Notes: generated by a model not told the origin, from the sequence alone. Numbered from the stretch's first letter, positions 2,565 through 64,000 are shown. The stretch is DNA of 64,000 bases from an uncultured Candidatus Saccharibacteria bacterium (GCA_964429815.1 CAYSCM010000001.1:32001-96000); one strand, 5' to 3'. Numbers and translations: made by a program.

Positions 2565-4307
2565 ATGACTCTCGAGCTCAGGGACTTTGTCCCGAAGAAG
2601 GCCCTCGGGCTCCATCCCGCCGACGTTGTCGCTGGGATTCCCTGGGGAGGACTCTCCGGTATGCGGGTGTGTTTCATCAACATGCCACTGCGGGAGTCCG
2701 CGAAGCCAAATACCCCGCCGCAAGGTCCCGGCCTTATGGCGGCCCGTCTTATGCAGTATGGCGCTGACGTCTCGATTATCGACCTCAACGGCTACCGTAT
2801 CGATGACGAAGAAGCGCACAAGCGCGGACTCGTCAATGGCCGACACGTCTCCCACAATGAGGCGCGTCAGCTCATCGAGGCGACTTTCCACAAGTTCGGC
2901 GAACCGCACGTGATTGGCCTTTCGGGGAAAATCACGACGTTGCGCTGGCAGGAGTGGACCGCCAAGACGTGTCGTTCGCTCGCTCCAGAGGCGTTTCTCA
3001 TCTCCGGCGGTGGGCTCGCGACCGAGTTCAAAGAAGGACTCTTCAGCTGGGTGCCGCAGCTCGACGCGGTCGGCCACTCGGAAGGCGACGACATCATGGT
3101 CGCCTGCGTGAATGACGTTCGCAAGAGCGGAGGCAAGCGCGAGCGCATGACCGACTCGCCCTACTACGTGGGCGAAATCGGCGGACGCCACCGCTTCCTC
3201 TATGCGGGCGATCGACCAAGGGACCTCGATGCGCTACCGTTTGCTGCGCTCGAACTTCTCGAAGAAGACGTCTTTGGCAATCGCATACTCGACGAGTACA
3301 TCGCGACCCCCGTATGGGGACTCGCGGCGAACAACTCGTCGGCGGCACCTTTCGAGATGAGGAAGTCTCTCACGACCGTCTCCTCTCGCGGCTGTCCGTA
3401 TGCCTGCGCGTTCTGCTTCCGTGGAGCGCAAGGCGAGCAAAAGTGGGGGATCCGCTCCCCCGAGAACCTGCGAGCCGAAGCCGAGTGGATGATTCGGAAG
3501 TATGGCGTGGATTTCATCGGGTTTCCCGATGACAACTTTGCCGTAAGCGTCAAGCGCTGCCAATCGCTTCCGGAGGCCTTTGACGGGCTCTCGTTTCGTT
3601 GGGGCACGCATACGCGCCTTGACGAATGCACGCTCGATCGGATCGTGCCCATGGCGAAAGCTGGGTGCATCTATATCGGCGTCGGTGCCGAATCGGCCTC
3701 GAAACACACCCTCTACCGCATGAAAAAGGGCGGACACATCGTCCGCAAGGACGGCGTGGAGCGTCTCACGAAATGGAACGGGTTCGAATTTCCGACAACG
3801 ATGATCGAGGGGATTCGAAATTGCCGAGACGTGGGTATCCACGTGAACGCGACCTGGATCATGGGATACCCAGGGGAAACCTTGGAGGACCTCAAGACCT
3901 CGGTTGCTTTCATTTCCTGGCAACAGGAGCACTACACCAAGGGATTGGTGCCCGGCACGCCGGAGTATCAAAATGCCTCGGCGTCGGTGAATCGACGCAT
4001 GTTCACGGCGACGTGGTATCCGGGGACCACCATGGTGGAAGCCCCCGAAGCCACGAAACCGCGGGAGCTCCTCGGCGAGCACTTCGGGATTCGTTTCGTC
4101 GAGAAAGGAAGCGGGCATGCACACAAGTTCGTCCCCGTTCCCGACGACGCAATGAAAGCCTATGTGCTGGAACTCGATGACGCGACTAAGATCCTCCACG
4201 GATCCGACGGAGCGCCCATCAACTACTCGGACATGCCGGAGGAGGTCTTCCTCGAGGCCCGTAGTCACATCGATTCGGGTCAAACGGAAAAGATCCTGTC
4301 GATGTAA
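2565..4307 (+). CDS. B12-binding (class B) radical SAM enzyme, probable radical methyltransferase acting on a sugar
   Basis: N-terminal cobalamin-binding-like domain (MRVCFINMPL...ADVSIIDLNGYRI). CxxxCxxC cluster in SSRGCPYACAFCF. AGGAGG 6 nt upstream of the ATG. Confidence 0.75.
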   Translation: MTLELRDFVPKKALGLHPADVVAGIPWGGLSGMRVCFINMPLRESAKPNTPPQGPGLMAARLMQYGADVSIIDLNGYRIDDEEAHKRGLVNGRHVSHNEARQLIEATFHKFGEPHVIGLSGKITTLRWQEWTAKTCRSLAPEAFLISGGGLATEFKEGLFSWVPQLDAVGHSEGDDIMVACVNDVRKSGGKRERMTDSPYYVGEIGGRHRFLYAGDRPRDLDALPFAALELLEEDVFGNRILDEYIATPVWGLAANNSSAAPFEMRKSLTTVSSRGCPYACAFCFRGAQGEQKWGIRSPENLRAEAEWMIRKYGVDFIGFPDDNFAVSVKRCQSLPEAFDGLSFRWGTHTRLDECTLDRIVPMAKAGCIYIGVGAESASKHTLYRMKKGGHIVRKDGVERLTKWNGFEFPTTMIEGIRNCRDVGIHVNATWIMGYPGETLEDLKTSVAFISWQQEHYTKGLVPGTPEYQNASASVNRRMFTATWYPGTTMVEAPEATKPRELLGEHFGIRFVEKGSGHAHKFVPVPDDAMKAYVLELDDATKILHGSDGAPINYSDMPEEVFLEARSHIDSGQTEKILSM

Positions 4308-48308: not shown

Positions 48309-48392
48309 GGTGGGCGAGGGGAGAGTTGAACTCCCAATCCTTGCGGAATACGCTTCTGAGGCGTACGTGTATACCAATTCCACCACTCGCCC
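48309..48392 (-). tRNA. tRNA-Leu (anticodon CAG), class II with long variable arm
   Basis: Minus-strand read GGGCGAG...TACGC-CTCAGAA-GCGTA...GGGAGTTCAACTCTCCC-CTCGCCC-ACC. Good acceptor, anticodon and T arms. Confidence 0.75.
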
Positions 48393-48544
48393 GTCTGTTC
48401 CATCCTACTCAAATATGAAAACGGGTCTAGCCGACATCAGACCGCGTGGGTCTCATTTAAAGGCGCCATCAATCCGATTTAAGCCTTCGACACACTGTTC
48501 TGTCAGCCGACTGGCGAGGGGCGGAAAAGCTGTACCGTCCTGTG

Positions 48545-48616
48545 TGCGAGTGGAAGGAATCGAACCTTCGACCTCTGTCTTATCAGGACAGCGTTCTACC
48601 ACTGAACTACACTCGC
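48545..48616 (-). tRNA. tRNA-Ile (anticodon GAU)
   Basis: Minus-strand read GCGAGTG-TA-GTTCAGTGGTAGAAC-G-CTGTC-CTGATAA-GACAG-...GAAGGTTCGATTCCTTC-CACTCGC-A. CCA not encoded. Confidence 0.75.
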
Positions 48617-48923
48617 AATGAGGTGGATACTAGCAAGAGAGCGCCTCCCTATCAACAGCTCCCCCTTCATGCGGGGTGCGTTTGGTCGGTACAATGATGG
48701 TGGTTCCAGTAGAAAGGAGAGAACCTTTGTGCGGTTGGTCACGACGTACACTCAAACGGGATCGCGGTCGTAGCCGAGAAATTCGGTCAAAGCCCATCCA
48801 GGAGGAGCTTTCCCTGCTCACCCCGAATGTCTCACGTGTCCTTCCCGAAGCCACAGTCGCTCCACCGGCGAGTCGCTCCGCGCGGCTCCCCTCACAGCAG
48901 CGACTCGCTGAGCTCTATGCCGC

Positions 48924-48975
48924 AAGGAGGTGATCCAGTCGCGTAAGAGCCCTACCAAGGCGCTTACGACTACCG
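48924..48975 (-). other. orphan 16S rRNA 3'-terminal-like segment (h45-like hairpin plus exact CTGGATCACCTCCTT)
   Basis: Minus-strand read GTAGTCGTAAGCGCCTTGGTAGGGCTCTTACGCGACTGGATCACCTCCTT. An exact 15-mer of the universal 16S 3' end, lying 1.6 kb downstream of the 16S body. Confidence 0.55.
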
Positions 48976-49028
48976 TTTTCGAACGTTCTTTCTTTCAAGC
49001 GCGCCGCGTTAGCGGCGCGCTTTCTATT

Positions 49029-49057
49029 CAAAAAAAGACCCGCTCTCAGAGCGGGTC
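49029..49057 (-). terminator. rho-independent terminator after the three small membrane-protein genes
   Basis: GACCCGCTC-TCA-GAGCGGGTC with an A7 run on the plus strand, which is T7 on the minus strand. Confidence 0.6.
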
Positions 49058-49069
49058 AGGTACGGGGGG

Positions 49070-49477
49070 TTATGCATCGTCGCGGTGACATAGCCGCAGG
49101 AGCGCACTAACGATGAGGACAGCTCCGAGGACGACCGGGGTGAACGCGGCGTTGAGTTCCCTATGGATGCCTAACCGGAGACCAATGAAGGTGACGACGA
49201 GGCCACCGAAGAACAGGATCGCGCTTTTCTCCACGTACGGGCTCCAGATTCGACAGAGGATGCCGCGCCATCCTCCCGTCATGAGAGCGGAAGCTACCAC
49301 CCCCAAGCTGTAGGAGGGAAAAGAATCCGTTTCCCGAACGAGGGCGTGGACGAAAAGCATGAGCCCGAGGAGAAAGACAAACGTGCCGAGTCCGATGATA
49401 AGCCGAGCCACGATGGACTCGCGAAGAACGCGAGGACGACTCCAATCGTGAAAAAGCTTGGTGGAGCGTTGAGACAT
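49070..49477 (-). CDS. small integral membrane protein (about 4 TM helices), hypothetical
   Basis: ATG 49477 is preceded by AAGGAGG at 8-nt spacing. The track ORF begins at GTG 49510. Hydrophobic throughout. Confidence 0.45.
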   Translation of the reverse strand: MSQRSTKLFHDWSRPRVLRESIVARLIIGLGTFVFLLGLMLFVHALVRETDSFPSYSLGVVASALMTGGWRGILCRIWSPYVEKSAILFFGGLVVTFIGLRLGIHRELNAAFTPVVLGAVLIVSALLRLCHRDDA

Positions 49478-49561
49478 GGATGGACCCTCCTTCTTTCGTC
49501 GTGATACCACTCTTCCTGAGCCGCCGCAACCTGTGGAAAACCGTTACGCAAGAAGGCCGCC

Positions 49562-49771
49562 CTACGGGCGGCCTTGCGGCTTTTTCTCGGCGCGACAGAT
49601 AAAGACGCACAGTATCATAAGCGCGATCGCGATGATGATAAAGAGCGTCCCCGCCGGCAGCGCATGAACAGGTTTTCCGCGTTGGATGATGCCGCCGATG
49701 AGCGCGGCAAAGCCGGCACCGGCAAGAACGAGCGCGAAGAAAGCCGTTGTGAGATTCGCTGCCTTTTTCAT
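49562..49771 (-). CDS. small membrane protein (2 TM), hypothetical
   Basis: ATG 49771 is preceded by GAGG. 69 aa with two hydrophobic helices. Confidence 0.4.
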   Translation of the reverse strand: MKKAANLTTAFFALVLAGAGFAALIGGIIQRGKPVHALPAGTLFIIIAIALMILCVFICRAEKKPQGRP

Positions 49772-49996
49772 GGGAGCCTCACGAGCGGTCCGTGGAAGTA
49801 GAGAAACACGTCGAGCGCCAAACTGAAAAAGAACAGGCTTAGCAGGATACGTTTCTTCCCGCTTGGGCCCGAGAACGCCTTGATGGGATGCATGCTAGCC
49901 CTCCCTGGTACCTTGGCACATCCTAGCTAAAGAGGCATGCCGGCGCAATCTAAGAAGAGCGCCGCCGGTGGTGCCGGCGGCGTCGTGTCCCCACGA

Positions 49997-50251
49997 TCAA
50001 GGGAAGGTTCGGTCGATGAACGAGCCGAAGTAGCCGACGCCGAAGCCGAGTCCGAGGTACTGGAGCGGTCGGAGCGGTGCCTCGAGCATGTTGACGGCAG
50101 CGTAGGCGCCGAGCATCCAGGCTATACCTACCGTGAGCGCCCCGGCGGCCACGCCGGTCGCAACGTCACGGTACCAAGAGGCCTGAGCGTCCCACATGTG
50201 GTCGAGGCGCTCGAGTCCAGTGCGATAGTTCCGTAGGGTTCCGTCGGGCAT
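49997..50251 (-). CDS. small membrane protein with glycine-zipper helices, hypothetical
   Basis: ATG 50251 is preceded by AAAGGAGG at 5-nt spacing. 84 aa. Confidence 0.45.
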   Translation of the reverse strand: MPDGTLRNYRTGLERLDHMWDAQASWYRDVATGVAAGALTVGIAWMLGAYAAVNMLEAPLRPLQYLGLGFGVGYFGSFIDRTFP

Positions 50252-50325
50252 AGGAACCTCCTTTCCTTTCCCGTCCCTGTTCTACCGAAGTTTTGCGCTC
50301 TACACAATGGCTTCCTCCCCATGCG

Positions 50326-50355
50326 CAAAAAAGCCCCTTATAAGGGGCTTTTTTG
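50326..50355. terminator. bidirectional rho-independent terminator at the end of the 16S transcription unit
   Basis: 20-nt perfect palindrome AAGCCCCTTA/TAAGGGGCTT flanked by an A6 run and a T6 run. Confidence 0.7.
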
Positions 50356-50359
50356 CGTT

Positions 50360-50388
50360 GGTACCAGAGTCTCTTTTGTTCCGTTCAA
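50360..50388 (-). other. 3' half of the 16S precursor processing stem
   Basis: Reverse-complementary, 27 of 29 nt, to 51987..52015 upstream of the 16S 5' end. Classic RNase III stem geometry. Confidence 0.6.
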
Positions 50389-50528
50389 TATACCAGTACG
50401 CATTTCTGGAAAGCGAGCAGACTTTAAAGACATACTGCTATGGTCTACTTCCGTACTCGATCGAGATACAGAATATCGACCGGATAAGTCTTACCTTCCG
50501 AAGAAGGAGACAGTTCCGATTGGAATTA

Positions 50529-51973
<1,445 letters not shown>

Positions 51974-51986
51974 AGCTAAGAATTCG

Positions 51987-52015
51987 TTGAACGGAACAAA
52001 AGAGAGGCTGGTACC
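51987..52015 (-). other. 5' half of the 16S precursor processing stem
   Basis: Complementary to 50360..50388. Confidence 0.6.
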
Positions 52016-52230
52016 TCCTTCTTGATTCCTTTTACCCGTCCGAGCCGCAAAGCGGTTAGGATTAGGGTTTTTTGATCAGACTACACCGCCCTGGTTGGCG
52101 GCTAATCTAGTTGAACAGATTTTGTCTGCTCGCACATAACGTTCTTTGATTATCAATGATCACTACCTCATTGGCCGTTCGCCTCAAGCGGATTAGGCCG
52201 AAACAAAAACCTGCCCAAGGCAGTGCAGAC

Positions 52231-52258
52231 AGTATACGCAGAATTTGATGGGTGTCAA
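52231..52258 (-). promoter_or_regulatory. sigma-70-type rRNA promoter TTGACA-N16-TATACT (minus strand)
   Basis: Minus-strand TTGACA at 52258..52253 and TATACT at 52236..52231, about 260 nt upstream of the 16S 5' end. Confidence 0.5.
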
Positions 52259-60914: not shown

Positions 60915-61022
60915 AACCTGGCGGCTACCTACTCTCCCCTTGCGAGTACCATCGGCGCTAGCGGGCTTAACGGCCGTGTTCGGAATGAGAACGGGTGTTT
61001 CCCCGCCGCCAAACCACCAGAT
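60915..61022 (-). rRNA. rrf: 5S ribosomal RNA
   Basis: Minus-strand read UCUGGUGGUUUGGCGGCGGGGAAACACCCGUUCUCAUUCCGAACACGGCCGUUAAGCCCGCUAGCGCCGAUGGUACUCGCAAGGGGAGAGUAGGUAGCCGCCAGGU. Helix I and loop C/E conserved. Flanked by the inverted repeat CCGTCCAAAATGT / ACATTTTGGACGG, which forms a processing stem. Confidence 0.85.
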
Positions 61023-61074
61023 TATAAATTCCAACTATTTTCGATCTCTAAGTGTGACATTTTGGACGGATTCT

Positions 61075-61119
61075 CGGAATGAGAACGGGTGTTTCCCCGC
61101 CGCCAAACCACCAGATTAT
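61075..61119 (-). repeat. 45-nt duplicate of the 5S rRNA 5' portion
   Basis: Identical to 60981..61025. Confidence 0.6.
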
Positions 61120-61459
61120 GAGATTCAAAAAGTCGGGTTCGGCAGCCGACTTCCTCGATAGGATGAGGAAGATCGGCTGCCGCCCGCGCAAGGACGTGAG
61201 CAGTTGAGCGGGGCGCTCCTCCCGAGCGGCCACCATTCCCATCGCAGTGCTAAAGCGCTTCTTAGAATGGTCGCGGAGGGCGACACCATTCCAGCTCCGC
61301 AAAGGGTCCGTGCACGCTTCTTTCCCACGTCCGAAAAGCGAAAACAAAGAACTTAACGTTTCGAAGCGTCCGAAATCCGGGTAGATTTCGGCCACCAGTA
61401 AAACGTCAAGCGGGTTAAAAAAGTAACGAAAATCATATTCAATCAATTGCGACATGCAG

Positions 61460-64000
<2,541 letters not shown>

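What the first reader, a model, noticed from the sequence alone, without database searches (positions are those of the whole stretch)
48924..50528. 16S rRNA gene lacks the canonical 3' tail; exact GGATCACCTCCTT lies 1.6 kb downstream behind three SD-bearing small membrane-protein genes
The 16S body is intact from AGAGTTTGATCC (51973) through helix 45. After TGGAT (50529) it continues TAATTCCAATCGGAACTGTCTCCTTCTTCGG rather than CACCTCCTT. The 16S unit looks self-contained: it has a TTGACA-16-TATACT promoter, complementary processing-stem flanks (51987..52015 pairs with 50360..50388) and a strong terminator (50326..50355) right after the 3' stem half. An exact CTGGATCACCTCCTT, preceded by a second, divergent h45-like hairpin, sits at 48924..48975. 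It is separated from the body by three small hydrophobic ORFs, each with an AAGGAGG-type Shine-Dalgarno sequence, and a second terminator. About 300 nt further downstream is tRNA-Ile(GAU), the canonical 16S-23S spacer tRNA. Genes in this window clearly use AGGAGG ribosome-binding sites, so an anti-SD should exist. Four alternatives fit: (i) a non-spliced insertion displaced the anti-SD tail, as CPR 16S genes are known to carry large insertions, though this one has no homing endonuclease; (ii) the 48.9-kb segment is the relic of a deleted second rrs copy and the functional 16S uses the variant CUCCUU present in its own tail; (iii) a fragmented rRNA; (iv) an assembly chimera.
Basis: seen in the sequence. 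Interest (0 to 1): 0.8.

Follow-up and report, generated by a model that had tools for sequence, protein, structure and literature searches.

The report
Orphan anti-Shine-Dalgarno motif beside tail-less 16S
This bacterium's 16S rRNA lacks the usual mRNA-docking tail because its whole lineage lost it (already published), but a 13-letter copy of that lost tail sits 1.6 kb downstream and is kept unchanged in the only known sister species, which suggests an unknown function.

Summary
The sequence features are real. The insertion reading is wrong. The 16S gene (51980..50519, minus strand) is complete and self-contained. Its ending, GGAU-UAAUUCC-AAUC-GGAA in place of GGAUCACCUCCUU, is a lineage-wide trait of one Parcubacteria/Paceibacterota clade: 37 of 44 genome relatives have it, it forms a covarying mini-hairpin, and the loss of the anti-SD in this group was published by Tsurumaki et al. 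2022. Relatives share the same trailer, processing stem and terminator, followed by a variable spacer before tRNA-Ile. Only the small spacer ORFs carry strong SDs, and this holds across the clade (3.4-fold, P=1.5e-11). What is new is the downstream CTGGATCACCTCC. It is exactly conserved, at the same relative position, in the only close relative (16S 97% identical, synonymous sites saturated at 38% identity). It is absent from about 160 more distant relatives. It is therefore probably under selection and is not part of the mature 16S. Its function is unknown. My best guess is an RNA element that pairs with the SD sequences of neighbouring genes. Misassembly and intron-like insertion are rejected; a split rRNA has no support but is not formally excluded.

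The parts
52231..52258 (-). 16S promoter TTGACA-16-TATACT
   Evidence: 11 of 12 matches; the sister species has TTGACA-16-TAGACT at the matching place
51987..52015 (-). 5' half of the pre-16S processing stem (CTCTTTTGTTCCGTTC core)
   Evidence: I1 (29 nt, 93% complementary); the core is conserved in the leaders of relatives
50519..51980 (-). 16S rRNA gene, complete through helix 45. It ends GGAU-UAAUUCCAAU instead of GGAUCACCUCCUU. The mature 3' end is unknown.
   Evidence: Rfam RF00177, 1376.8 bits, model 1-1533
50514..50531 (-). lineage-specific replacement tail: GAUUAA + mini-hairpin UUCC(50525-50522)-AAUC-GGAA(50517-50514)
   Evidence: 95 of 135 unique relatives' tails form this hairpin against 40 (maximum 54) in shuffles, with covarying arms
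50488..50511 (-). trailer hairpin 2, GUCUCCUUC-UUCG-GAAGGUAAGAC.
   Evidence: the sister species has GUUUUCCUCC-UUCG-GGGGCGAAAAC, with compensatory changes; other relatives have unrelated sequences here
50360..50388 (-). 3' half of the processing stem (TTGAACGGAACAAAAGAG core)
   Evidence: the same core is found in relatives' trailers
50324..50357 (-). intrinsic terminator of the 16S unit, a perfect 34-nt palindrome
   Evidence: I5; an equivalent terminator follows the stem half in relatives
49997..50251 (-). ORF A, 84 aa, hydrophobic, SD AAGGAGGT; no known relatives
   Evidence: no detectable homolog in the sister species
49768..49893 (-). ORF B', 41 aa, SD GGGAGGG
49562..49771 (-). ORF B, 69 aa, two hydrophobic segments; its start overlaps the stop of B' (ATGA)
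   Evidence: no homolog found
49070..49477 (-). ORF C, 135 aa membrane protein, SD AAGGAGGG. It is the only cassette gene with a detectable homolog (sister species, 32% identity over 98 aa, E=3e-6).
49030..49057 (-). intrinsic terminator after ORF C (GACCCGCTCTGAGAGCGGGTC + T7)
48995..49021 (.). GC-rich hairpin AAGCGCGCCGC-TAAC-GCGGCGCGCTT. On the + strand it is followed by a T-rich run, so it may terminate the antisense gene. The sister species has GGCGCGCC..GGCGCGCC 9 nt before the motif.
48924..48938 (-). orphan canonical 16S 3' tail, CTGGATCACCTCCTT. The first 13 nt are identical in the sister species at the syntenic place.
48727..48933 (+). antisense small basic protein gene (68 aa from TTG, SD AAGGAGAG), divergent from tRNA-Ile. 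Its TGA stop lies inside the motif. It belongs to an unnamed family (MCxGY...G-x-S-R-E) found in several relatives.
   Evidence: synonymous codon changes keep G-T/P/R-S-R-E; no Pfam or NCBIfam hit
48627..48655 (-). tRNA-Ile promoter TTGATA-17-TAGTAT, conserved in the sister species
48544..48616 (-). tRNA-Ile(GAU)
   Evidence: it lies downstream of 16S in most relatives
48309..48392 (-). tRNA-Leu(CAG)
   Evidence: same order in several relatives

Best explanation
Shown: the 16S gene is intact and typical of its lineage. That lineage is a Parcubacteria/Paceibacterota clade in which the single-stranded tail GAUCACCUCCUUA has been replaced by GAU(U/C)(A/C)AUUCC folded into a mini-hairpin. After it come a trailer of about 140 nt, the 3' half of the processing stem and a terminator. 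Nothing was displaced in this genome. The ribosome has no canonical anti-SD, and the host genes accordingly show no SD signal. The stretch between the 16S terminator and the tRNA-Ile promoter is a fast-evolving spacer. In many members of the clade it carries small membrane-protein genes that, unusually, do have strong AAGGAGG-type SDs. The downstream CTGGATCACCTCC(TT) is a separate short element in the convergent gap between ORF C and an antisense small basic protein gene. It is identical in the only known sister species although neutral sites between the two are saturated, so it is most likely maintained by selection. Inferred (not shown): it acts at the RNA level through its complementarity to SD sequences. 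It would be an anti-SD mimic carried on read-through transcripts of the cassette, pairing with the AAGGAGG(U) sites of the neighbouring small ORFs to control their translation or stability. It is not joined to, or part of, the mature 16S rRNA.
For: Lineage trait: 37 of 44 genome relatives found with a 16S pattern have the non-canonical tail, and none of these has CACCTCCT downstream. All 120 metagenome loci, which were selected by a pattern ending in GGATT, show variants of the same tail. The mini-hairpin covaries. Leader and trailer stem halves and the terminator are shared. The loss is published (PMC9297842). No SD use by host genes. SD-led spacer ORFs: in this window 3 of 3 independent starts against 6 of 72 host ORFs (Fisher p=0.0012). 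Across the clade, 0.74 SD-ORFs per kb on the sense strand of spacers against 0.22 per kb elsewhere (44 observed, 13 expected, P=1.5e-11), with a canonical A-rich GGAGG profile. Conservation of the motif: L140 and L170-172 (16S 97.0% identical, SecDF 80% aa) have the exact CTGGATCACCTCC 2.2 kb after the 16S and about 630 nt before tRNA-Ile. It is the only significant nucleotide island between the ORF C homolog and the tRNA-Ile promoter. Four-fold degenerate sites are 37.7% identical, so neutral retention of a given 13-mer has probability about 3e-6. The expected number of exact chance hits over all 973 kb of relatives is 0.015. The reading frames over the motif differ between the two species on the antisense strand, so protein coding there does not explain it. 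Complementary partners exist next door: ORF A AAGGAGGU (8 bp), ORF C AAGGAGG, and L140 ORF C homolog GGAGGUGA (8 bp). ORF C's SD is retained in both species.
Against: No sigma-70-like promoter precedes the motif on the sense strand in either species, and strong terminators lie just upstream, so sense transcription depends on read-through. On the antisense strand the motif is clearly inside a transcription unit, between the small basic gene's stop and a hairpin plus T-run, so the functional strand could be the other one. No shared secondary structure surrounds the motif. There is no covariation between species-specific flanks of the motif and the SDs: L140's SDs keep AAGGAGG although its motif lacks the UU. 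SD-led spacer ORFs also occur in many relatives that have no such motif, and sense-strand CCTCC is not enriched in spacers (1.08-fold), so the motif cannot be the general partner of those SDs. Only two species carry it, so the extent and strength of constraint rest on a single comparison. A pure regulatory pairing would not need identity to the CUGGAUCA part of the 16S tail.
Confidence: 0.55

Rival explanations
1. The functional strand is the antisense (+) strand. GGAGGUGAUCCAG would then be an element at the 3' end or 3' UTR of the small basic protein mRNA, between its stop codon and its terminator hairpin, affecting termination, stability or stop-codon context. The identity to the 16S tail would be incidental to that role.
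For: In both species the motif lies inside the antisense transcription unit. In the window it overlaps the TGA stop of the 68-aa gene (48727..48933). In L140 it lies 58 nt after the stop and 9 nt before the GC hairpin plus T-run. The small basic gene is real: synonymous codon changes preserve G-x-S-R-E across lineages.
Against: An SD-like sequence has no known partner in a ribosome without an anti-SD. No start codon follows it at SD spacing on that strand in either species. Relatives with the same small basic gene have no such motif. An exact match to the universal 16S tail would be unexplained.
Confidence: 0.15
2. It is a non-functional relic of a canonical 16S 3' end, from an old recombination or foreign rrn fragment at the tRNA-Ile locus. 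It would have survived in both species by chance or by recent parallel acquisition.
For: The motif equals 16S positions about 1527-1541 and sits where a 16S end would lie, upstream of tRNA-Ile. The tRNA-Ile neighbourhood shows signs of rearrangement: decayed partial copies of the tRNA-Ile 5' part occur in L140 and probably in L029, L044 and L021. Sharing some 13-mer between the two spacers occurs in 4.5% of shuffles.
Against: With 37.7% identity at four-fold sites, retention of this particular 13-mer has probability about 3e-6. The flanks are unalignable. No other 16S remnant is detectable around it. The clade has been without an anti-SD for a very long time, given 16S identities of 82-87% among members that all lack it.
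Confidence: 0.12
3. The 16S tail is split or supplied in trans. The orphan element would provide the anti-SD to an otherwise anti-SD-less small subunit, either as a separate RNA docking with SD-led mRNAs or joined after processing. This would allow translation of the SD-led spacer ORFs.
For: Functional-looking SDs persist in an organism whose 16S has no anti-SD. The SD of ORF C is kept in both species. The conserved stretch is exactly the canonical tail through CCUCC. Helix h26, which contacts the SD helix, is reported as conserved in Parcubacteria that lack the anti-SD (PMC9297842).
Against: Three intrinsic terminators lie between the 16S body and the motif. The processing stem closes the 16S unit before them. 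No trailer-distal complementarity exceeds shuffles. No intron or intervening-sequence model hits. No tether for a free 13-nt tail is evident. SD-led spacer ORFs exist in relatives without any such motif.
Confidence: 0.05
4. The motif is a protein- or DNA-level recognition site that mimics the 16S 3' end. Candidates are an RNA-binding factor that normally reads h45 plus GAUCACCUCC (Era-type), or a recombinase or homing enzyme that targets 16S rDNA.
For: Era recognises exactly GAUCACCUCC next to h45 (Tu et al. 2011, as cited in PMC10582724). In the window a hairpin abuts the motif. Conservation covers CUGGAUCA, which SD pairing does not need.
Against: [quoted passage not shown] The hairpin is not conserved in the sister species. 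No integrase or endonuclease gene lies in either spacer.
Confidence: 0.07
5. The motif is conserved because it encodes part of a sense-strand micro-protein (...R/S-L-D-H-L...).
For: CTG GAT CAC CTC reads LDHL in an open frame in both species. L140 has a 32-codon ORF with SD AGAGGAGG and a TTG start. The window has a 27-38-codon ORF ending 12 nt after the motif. A possible upstream R-L-G match shows third-position differences.
Against: The window has no SD or credible start, and the frame runs through two strong hairpins and a terminator tail. Flanking residues are not conserved. All four third positions are identical. The coincidence with the 16S tail would remain unexplained.
Confidence: 0.04
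6. One reading: a non-spliced insertion displaced the tail in this genome, or the region is an assembly chimera.
For: CPR 16S genes do carry large insertions; relative L016 has one near the 3' end. The junction between the 16S unit and the cassette runs through a 34-nt palindrome where Logan contigs break.
Against: The non-canonical ending, trailer, stem half and terminator are shared by relatives that have no distal tail. There is no endonuclease ORF and no intron RNA hit. The same layout appears in three identical assemblies of the sister species on contigs of 161-402 kb. The Logan contig is identical over 50355..48583.
Confidence: 0.02

Closest known systems
Anti-SD-less 16S rRNA of a Parcubacteria subgroup (Tsurumaki et al. 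2022, RNA 28:1041, PMC9297842)
   Same: The 16S 3' end lacks CCUCCU. The organism's relatives are named Paceibacterota, Kaiserbacteria, Vogelbacteria and Parcubacteria. The trait is clade-wide.
   Different: The passages of that paper read here report only a lower detection rate of the motif. They do not mention the replacement mini-hairpin, the SD-led spacer ORFs or an orphan canonical tail downstream.
Large insertions in CPR 16S rRNA genes (group I introns or homing-endonuclease-bearing insertions; Brown et al. 2015, from my own knowledge; an example seen here in L016)
   Same: Extra DNA associated with a CPR 16S gene; in L016 the insertion sits near the 3' end, after AAGUCGU.
   Different: In the window the 16S model is uninterrupted through h45 and the gene ends as in its relatives. 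The extra DNA lies after the processing stem and terminator, carries no endonuclease and gives no intron RNA hit.
Small regulatory RNAs with C/U-rich, anti-SD-like seed regions that bind ribosome-binding sites (e.g. CcsR1 with its CCUCCUCCC motif, RF02791; RsaE and RNAIII in staphylococci, from my own knowledge)
   Same: A CCUCC-containing sequence lies next to genes whose ribosome-binding sites are complementary to it.
   Different: No promoter of its own was found. No conserved hairpin presents the motif. The sequence is an exact copy of the ribosomal tail rather than a generic C-rich seed, and the host ribosome itself lacks that tail.
Bacteroidia/Flavobacteria translation, where the anti-SD is present but sequestered and only a few genes such as rpsU keep strong SDs (from my own knowledge)
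   Same: A genome-wide lack of SDs with a small special set of SD-led genes.
   Different: In Bacteroidia the anti-SD is still part of the 16S. Here it is absent from the 16S.
Era recognition element: helix 45 plus GAUCACCUCC (Tu et al. 2011, cited in PMC10582724)
   Same: The conserved 13-mer contains exactly GAUCACCUCC; in the window a hairpin precedes it.
   Different: It lies outside any rRNA. The hairpin is not h45-like by test and is not conserved. Most CPR lack era.
Fragmented rRNAs and intervening sequences removed by RNase III (23S intervening sequences of enterobacteria; scrambled organellar rRNAs; from my own knowledge)
   Same: A piece of rRNA sequence is encoded apart from the body of the gene.
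   Different: No helix joins the pieces. Terminators and protein genes lie between them. The body is closed by its own processing stem.

Membership tests
Bacterial SSU rRNA (Rfam RF00177) | Full-length match to the covariance model above the gathering score | tested here: met
   1376.8 bits, model 1-1533, 51980..50519
Bacterial SSU rRNA (Rfam RF00177) | Helix 45 with GGAA loop followed by the single-stranded GAUCACCUCCUUA | tested here: not met
   h45 is present, but the tail reads GAUUAAUUCCAAU
Anti-SD-less Parcubacteria 16S (Tsurumaki 2022) | No CCUCCU motif at the 16S 3' end | tested here: met
Anti-SD-less Parcubacteria 16S (Tsurumaki 2022) | Phylogenetic placement inside Parcubacteria/Paceibacterota | tested here: met
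   The nearest 16S relatives (82-87% identity) and SecF homologs are named Paceibacterota, Kaiserbacteria, Vogelbacteria or Parcubacteria
Anti-SD-less Parcubacteria 16S (Tsurumaki 2022) | Overlap with the uL1-lacking group | not tested
   The rplA locus was not looked for; only 64 kb of the genome is available
Anti-SD-less Parcubacteria 16S (Tsurumaki 2022) | Expected consequence: no SD enrichment upstream of genes | tested here: met
   11% against 11% background for GGAG/GAGG; 8% against 3.8% for strong motifs. The control set of canonical-tail relatives was too small (19 genes) to validate the method; the spacer ORFs serve as an internal positive control.
CPR 16S insertion or intron | Conserved 16S sequence interrupted, with both exons recognisable around the insert | tested here: not met
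   The model is uninterrupted to h45. Relatives end the same way. The contrast case L016 shows a real insertion.
CPR 16S insertion or intron | Homing endonuclease ORF and/or a group I or II intron RNA fold | tested here: not met
   No Pfam family reaches its curated cut-off for any of the four ORFs. No intron family appears in the Rfam scans, including E<=10.
Fragmented rRNA / intervening sequence | Complementary ends that hold the fragments together or form an RNase III stem around the insert | tested here: not met
   The only strong stem pairs the leader with 50388..50360. Trailer-distal duplex energies are no better than shuffles.
Trans-acting sRNA with an anti-SD-like seed | Own promoter and terminator defining a short transcript | tested here: not met
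   There is no sigma-70-like site upstream on the sense strand in either species; the organism's promoter rules are only partly known
Trans-acting sRNA with an anti-SD-like seed | Seed complementary to the ribosome-binding sites of target genes | tested here: met
   7-8 bp with the SDs of ORF A and ORF C and of the L140 ORF C homolog; this is ordinary SD:anti-SD complementarity and is not specific
Trans-acting sRNA with an anti-SD-like seed | Expression of the RNA | not testable with these tools
   No transcript data are available
Type I toxin-antitoxin | Small hydrophobic toxin plus an RNA that blocks its ribosome-binding site | tested here: inconclusive
   Small hydrophobic ORFs of 41-135 aa with SDs complementary to the motif are present. 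There is no homology to known systems, toxicity is untestable, and the PADLOC library was not searched.

The most novel reading that the evidence does not exclude
In this small clade the anti-Shine-Dalgarno sequence has been separated from the 16S rRNA and is kept as a separate genetic element. That element would supply SD recognition in trans, or after joining, for a special set of SD-led small membrane-protein genes encoded next to the rRNA gene. The bulk of the proteome would be translated without SD pairing.
Probability: 0.05. Interest if true: 0.95.

Novelty: new variant of a known kind. Interest (0 to 1): 0.6.

Why it matters
The headline anomaly, a 16S without an anti-SD, is a published trait of one Parcubacteria subgroup and is not new. 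Two things go beyond the published statement read here. First, an exact copy of the lost tail persists outside the rRNA gene and appears to be under selection in two species. Second, across the anti-SD-less clade the small genes just downstream of the 16S gene carry canonical AAGGAGG sites although the ribosome has nothing canonical to read them with. Either SD-like sequences have a ribosome-independent role in these organisms, or some RNA other than the 16S tail reads them. Both options bear on how translation starts in bacteria that have dropped the SD mechanism. Metatranscriptomes from the samples that hold these organisms could test this directly.

Tried and rejected
1. Insertion or intron reading. 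Rfam at the gathering threshold and at E<=10 found no intron or second SSU fragment in 48700..50800. Pfam found nothing above cut-off in the ORFs.
2. Homologs of ORF C. Only the protein itself was found at first. A profile built with the L140 homolog found only those two. ORF A and ORF B have no detectable homolog in L140.
3. Source contigs. Exact look-ups gave only short Logan contigs that break at the rRNA and at the palindrome, so the junction at 50324..50357 could not be checked independently in this organism.
4. Alignment of the two spacers. Global MAFFT alignment was uninformative. Short-word blastn found only the 13-mer and the tRNA-Ile promoter.
5. Shared RNA structure around the motif: none.
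6. Pairing of the 16S trailer with the distal region: not better than shuffles. duplexfold on such long inputs is not very meaningful, and the first attempt timed out.
7. Homology of the 'h45-like' hairpin to h44/h45: permutation p 0.03-0.5, not accepted.
8. A motif search with CACCTCCT missed the L140 copy, which reads CACCTCCG. The search was corrected with TGGATCACCTCC at up to 1 mismatch on both strands. Three 1-mismatch hits on the antisense strand fit the chance expectation of about 2.
9. A general anti-SD-like element in relatives' spacers: sense-strand CCTCC is not enriched.
10. Era mimicry was down-weighted because most CPR lack era.
11. More clade members via SecF: only one close relative exists in 5.8 billion proteins. 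P0006 contigs have no 16S near SecF and P0011 contigs have an anti-SD-less 16S without the motif.
12. Strain variation in the sister species: none; three assemblies are identical over 20.9 kb.
13. The SD positive control (canonical-tail relatives) was too small to be informative.


Full report
What is in the window. On the minus strand the order is as follows:
- 23S (cut by the window end, 64000..61464), then 5S (61021..60916), then about 9 kb of protein genes (FtsW-type, glycosyltransferases, SecD, SecF)
- the 16S promoter TTGACA-16-TATACT (52258..52231), then a leader holding the 5' half of a processing stem (52015..51987)
- 16S (51980..50519), then a trailer of about 140 nt, then the 3' half of the stem (50388..50360)
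- a perfect 34-nt palindromic terminator (50357..50324)
- four small ORFs (A 84 aa, B' 41 aa, B 69 aa, C 135 aa), then a terminator (49057..49030)
- a GC-rich hairpin (49021..48995), a second hairpin (48975..48939), then CTGGATCACCTCCTT (48938..48924)
- about 270 nt that on the other strand encode a 68-aa basic protein (48727..48933)
- the tRNA-Ile promoter (48655..48627), tRNA-Ile(GAU) and tRNA-Leu(CAG)

Checking the observation. Rfam's bacterial SSU model matches end to end at 1376.8 bits. It aligns its last positions GAUcACCUCCUUu to GAUUAAUUCCAAU, so helix 45 with its GGAA loop is intact and the canonical tail is missing. The exact canonical tail 1.6 kb downstream is the only exact GGATCACCTCC in the window. 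A Logan contig from an independent assembly is 100% identical to 50355..48583, so the cassette, the motif and tRNA-Ile are contiguous; that contig ends inside the palindrome, as a k-mer assembler would make it do.

First, host genes do not 'clearly use AGGAGG'. Upstream of the first ATG of long ORFs, GGAG/GAGG occurs at 11%, against 11% inside genes. Inspection shows starts preceded by sequences such as TTCTCGCATAACT-ATG. Second, the 'h45-like' hairpin folds, but its similarity to h44/h45 is not significant (p 0.03-0.5).

The missing tail is a lineage trait, not a local accident. A scan of one genome per species with a 16S signature returned 44 loci. The nearest 16S sequences are only 82-87% identical and are named Paceibacterota, Kaiserbacteria, Vogelbacteria or Parcubacteria. 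Thirty-seven of the 44 end like this window: GGAT(T/C)(A/C)ATTCC-AAWN-GGAA, or variants such as GGATTATTTCAAATTGAA. Six loci, two named Berkelbacteria, one 'Patescibacteria group' and three labelled Saccharibacteria, have the canonical tail. One (L016) has an insertion. None of the non-canonical ones has CACCTCCT downstream. Among 135 distinct tails, 95 form a 4-5-bp hairpin right after GAUNNA, against 40 (maximum 54) in shuffles. The arms covary: UUCA/UGAA 27, UUCC/GGAA 16, UUUC/GAAA 11, UCAA/UUGA 5. The canonical single-stranded tail has therefore been replaced by a small helix.

Relatives also share the leader core CTCTTTTGTTCCGTYC, its partner GRACGGAACAAAAGAG in the trailer, and an intrinsic terminator directly after it. 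The 16S is thus a closed transcription and processing unit throughout the clade. This loss has been published. Tsurumaki et al. 2022 detected the CCUCCU motif in only 48% of Parcubacteria, mostly missing in the uL1-lacking group, and concluded that SD helices do not form there (PMC9297842).

A true insertion can be seen in relative L016. About 810 nt with a homing-endonuclease-like ORF follow AAGTCGT, and the 3' exon AACAAGG-h45-GGAATTATTTC resumes afterwards. Nothing of that kind is present here.

The spacer. In relatives, tRNA-Ile(GAU) follows the 16S on the same strand at 0.25-4.3 kb, often with tRNA-Leu(CAG) further on. The spacer content is not conserved. It often holds small hydrophobic ORFs preceded by AAGGAGG-type sequences. 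I counted strong SD + start + ORF of at least 25 codons in 61 dereplicated spacers. The density is 0.74 per kb on the sense strand, against 0.20 on the antisense strand and 0.22 in the rest of the loci (44 observed, 13 expected, P=1.5e-11). The motif profile is that of a real SD: A-rich before GGAG, and G after it in 48% against 27%. In the window, 3 of 3 independent cassette starts have strong SDs, against 6 of 72 long ORFs elsewhere (p=0.0012). The anti-SD-less clade therefore has a special set of SD-led small genes right behind its 16S gene. I have no explanation for this. Sense-strand CCTCC is not enriched in the spacers.

Divergent from tRNA-Ile, several relatives and the window encode a small, very basic protein (MCxGY...G-T/P/R-S-R-E...). 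Its conserved residues are written with different synonymous codons (Ser as TCG, TCA, TCC and AGC; Arg as CGT, CGA and CGG), so it is a real gene. It matches no Pfam or NCBIfam family.

The sister species. A metagenome scan with the h45 sequence of this clade returned 120 loci. One, L140, has a 16S 97.0% identical over 1464 nt. A SecF search over 5.8 billion proteins shows that this is the only close relative (76% aa identity; the next are 65% or lower). Its locus was recovered identically from three assemblies, on contigs of 161-402 kb.

Synteny is conserved: SecD, SecF, then a stretch that differs between the two species, then 16S, terminator, spacer, tRNA-Ile and tRNA-Leu. The 16S unit is 95% identical. 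The spacer (2.7 kb in L140, 1.7 kb here) gives no blastn match. It again encodes four or five small, mostly SD-led ORFs. One of them is a homolog of ORF C (32% identity over 98 aa, E=3e-6).

At L140 7439-7451, 2.2 kb after the 16S and about 630 nt before tRNA-Ile, stands the exact CTGGATCACCTCC, 9 nt after a GC hairpin. Between the ORF C homolog and the tRNA-Ile promoter it is the only significant shared stretch. In 973 kb from 164 relatives' loci, TGGATCACCTCC with up to 1 mismatch occurs on the sense strand only at genuine canonical 16S ends and in L140. Three 1-mismatch hits on the other strand fit the chance expectation.

Four-fold degenerate sites of SecDF are 37.7% identical between the two species (n=363). 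A given neutral 13-mer would therefore survive with probability about 3e-6. The reading frames over the motif on the antisense strand differ: AGG AGG TGA here, GAG GTG ATC CAG in L140, where the small basic gene stops 58 nt earlier. That gene's coding therefore does not explain the conservation. I conclude that the motif is maintained by selection in this two-species clade, and that it is absent from, or was never present in, the rest of the anti-SD-less group.

What it does. This part is inference. The motif is not part of the mature 16S:
- the processing stem closes the rRNA unit
- three terminators and four genes intervene
- no pairing between the trailer and the distal region exceeds shuffles
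- no intron or intervening-sequence signature exists

The only complementary sequences the genome offers are the SDs of the neighbouring ORFs: 8 bp with ORF A, 7 with ORF C, and 8 with the L140 ORF C homolog. The SD of ORF C has itself been kept in both species. The most economical mechanism is therefore an RNA element that pairs with those SDs, carried on read-through transcripts of the cassette.

Several points weigh against this:
- There is no promoter before the motif on the sense strand in either species.
- There is no common structure around it.
- The flanks of the motif do not covary with the SDs.
- SD-led ORFs exist in relatives that lack the motif.
- Pairing would not require the CUGGAUCA part.

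On the other strand the motif lies inside the transcription unit of the small basic gene in both species, just before a hairpin plus T-run, so a role in that mRNA is the main rival. An Era-type protein site fits the exact extent GAUCACCUCC (Tu et al. 2011, via PMC10582724), but most CPR lack era. A sense micro-ORF (...LDHL...) is possible but weak. A decaying relic is hard to reconcile with the saturation of neutral sites. A split or trans-acting anti-SD would be remarkable, but nothing positive supports it.

That sequence is the 5' arm of trailer hairpin 2 (GUCUCCUUC-UUCG-GAAGGUAAGAC). The sister species has GUUUUCCUCC-UUCG-GGGGCGAAAAC, which keeps the helix through compensatory changes. Other relatives have unrelated sequences there. 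Both species of the clade thus have a CUCC-type run in that arm, but in a different register and base-paired. I cannot exclude that it serves as an anti-SD if the mature 3' end lies beyond it. The evidence favours a structural hairpin.

Verdict. The explanation 'a tail displaced by an insertion' is wrong, and 'misassembly' is excluded. The absence of the tail is ordinary for this lineage and is already published. What remains is an exact orphan copy of the canonical 16S tail conserved between two species whose ribosomes lack it, next to SD-led genes that themselves make little sense in this clade. I did not find this described in the two full-text searches I ran on anti-SD in Parcubacteria/Patescibacteria, and it can be tested with transcript data.

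Noticed in passing
window 49070-50251 (minus strand); relatives' 16S-tRNA-Ile spacers, e.g. L010 about 3300-3800, L016 4690-4960, L033, L047, L140 5509-7382: Across the anti-SD-less clade, small (25-135 aa), mostly hydrophobic ORFs with canonical AAGGAGG-type Shine-Dalgarno sequences are concentrated on the sense strand between the 16S terminator and tRNA-Ile. The density is 0.74 per kb against 0.22 per kb elsewhere (P=1.5e-11). Ordinary genes show no SD signal. No complementary partner was found in most of these genomes.
   Followed up: partly
window 48727-48933 (+); L031, L043, L018, L047, L029, L007, L044 and L140 (7869-7510, minus strand of the locus): A conserved small, very basic protein gene (46-119 aa; N-terminus MCxGY...G-T/P/R-S-R-E) is transcribed divergently from tRNA-Ile. 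It usually has a GTG or TTG start and a strong SD. Synonymous codon replacement shows that it is coding. It matches no Pfam or NCBIfam family.
   Followed up: partly
L140 7905-8020; L029, L044 and L021 spacers just upstream of tRNA-Ile: Decayed partial copies of the 5' part of tRNA-Ile lie between the tRNA-Ile promoter and the intact gene (two in L140, e.g. GCGAGTGTAGTTCAGTGGTTAGAGGACTGTCC...). This suggests repeated insertion or recombination at the 5' side of this tRNA, or intron remnants. A 2026 paper on group I introns in Patescibacteria tRNA genes (PMC13011429) may be relevant and was not read.
   Followed up: no
L016 1053-4400: A Vogelbacteria 16S gene carries two insertions. One of about 1 kb lies near model position 737. 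One of about 810 nt lies after AAGTCGT (about E. coli position 1498) and encodes a homing-endonuclease-like protein. The 3' exon that follows is itself anti-SD-less.
   Followed up: partly
window 60916-64000 versus 50519-51980: The rRNA genes are unlinked and in an unusual order. 23S-5S lies upstream of the 16S on the same strand, separated by about 9 kb of protein genes, while tRNA-Ile still follows the 16S.
   Followed up: no
window about 51505-51525 (16S 530-loop region): The universally conserved GCCAGCAGCCGCGGTAA reads GCCAGCAGAAGCGGTAA (AA for CC). This would mismatch the common 515F primer. Whether it is specific to the clade was not checked.
   Followed up: no
window 50324-50357: The 16S terminator is a perfect 34-nt palindrome (CGCAAAAAAGCCCCTTA|TAAGGGGCTTTTTTGCG), so it can terminate in both directions. 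Logan contigs break exactly there.
   Followed up: yes
window about 63300-63330 (23S): The Rfam alignment of the 23S shows extra sequence, not in the model, near model position 1218. The matched 23S part is about 160 nt longer than the model span.
   Followed up: no
window 52013-52030 and L140 about 3745-3760 (16S leaders): Both species have an SD-like AAGGAG(G) directly 5' of the processing stem in the 16S leader (AAGAAGGAGGTACC here; ATATAAGGAGTGGTACC in L140). In the window it is complementary to the CUCCUUCUU of trailer hairpin 2.
   Followed up: no
window 50268 and L140 6545: The second-longest exact match between the two spacers is the 13-mer AAGGAAAGGAGGT. It is the ribosome-binding region of ORF A here and of the ORF C homolog in L140, which are genes at different positions in the cassette.
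   Followed up: no
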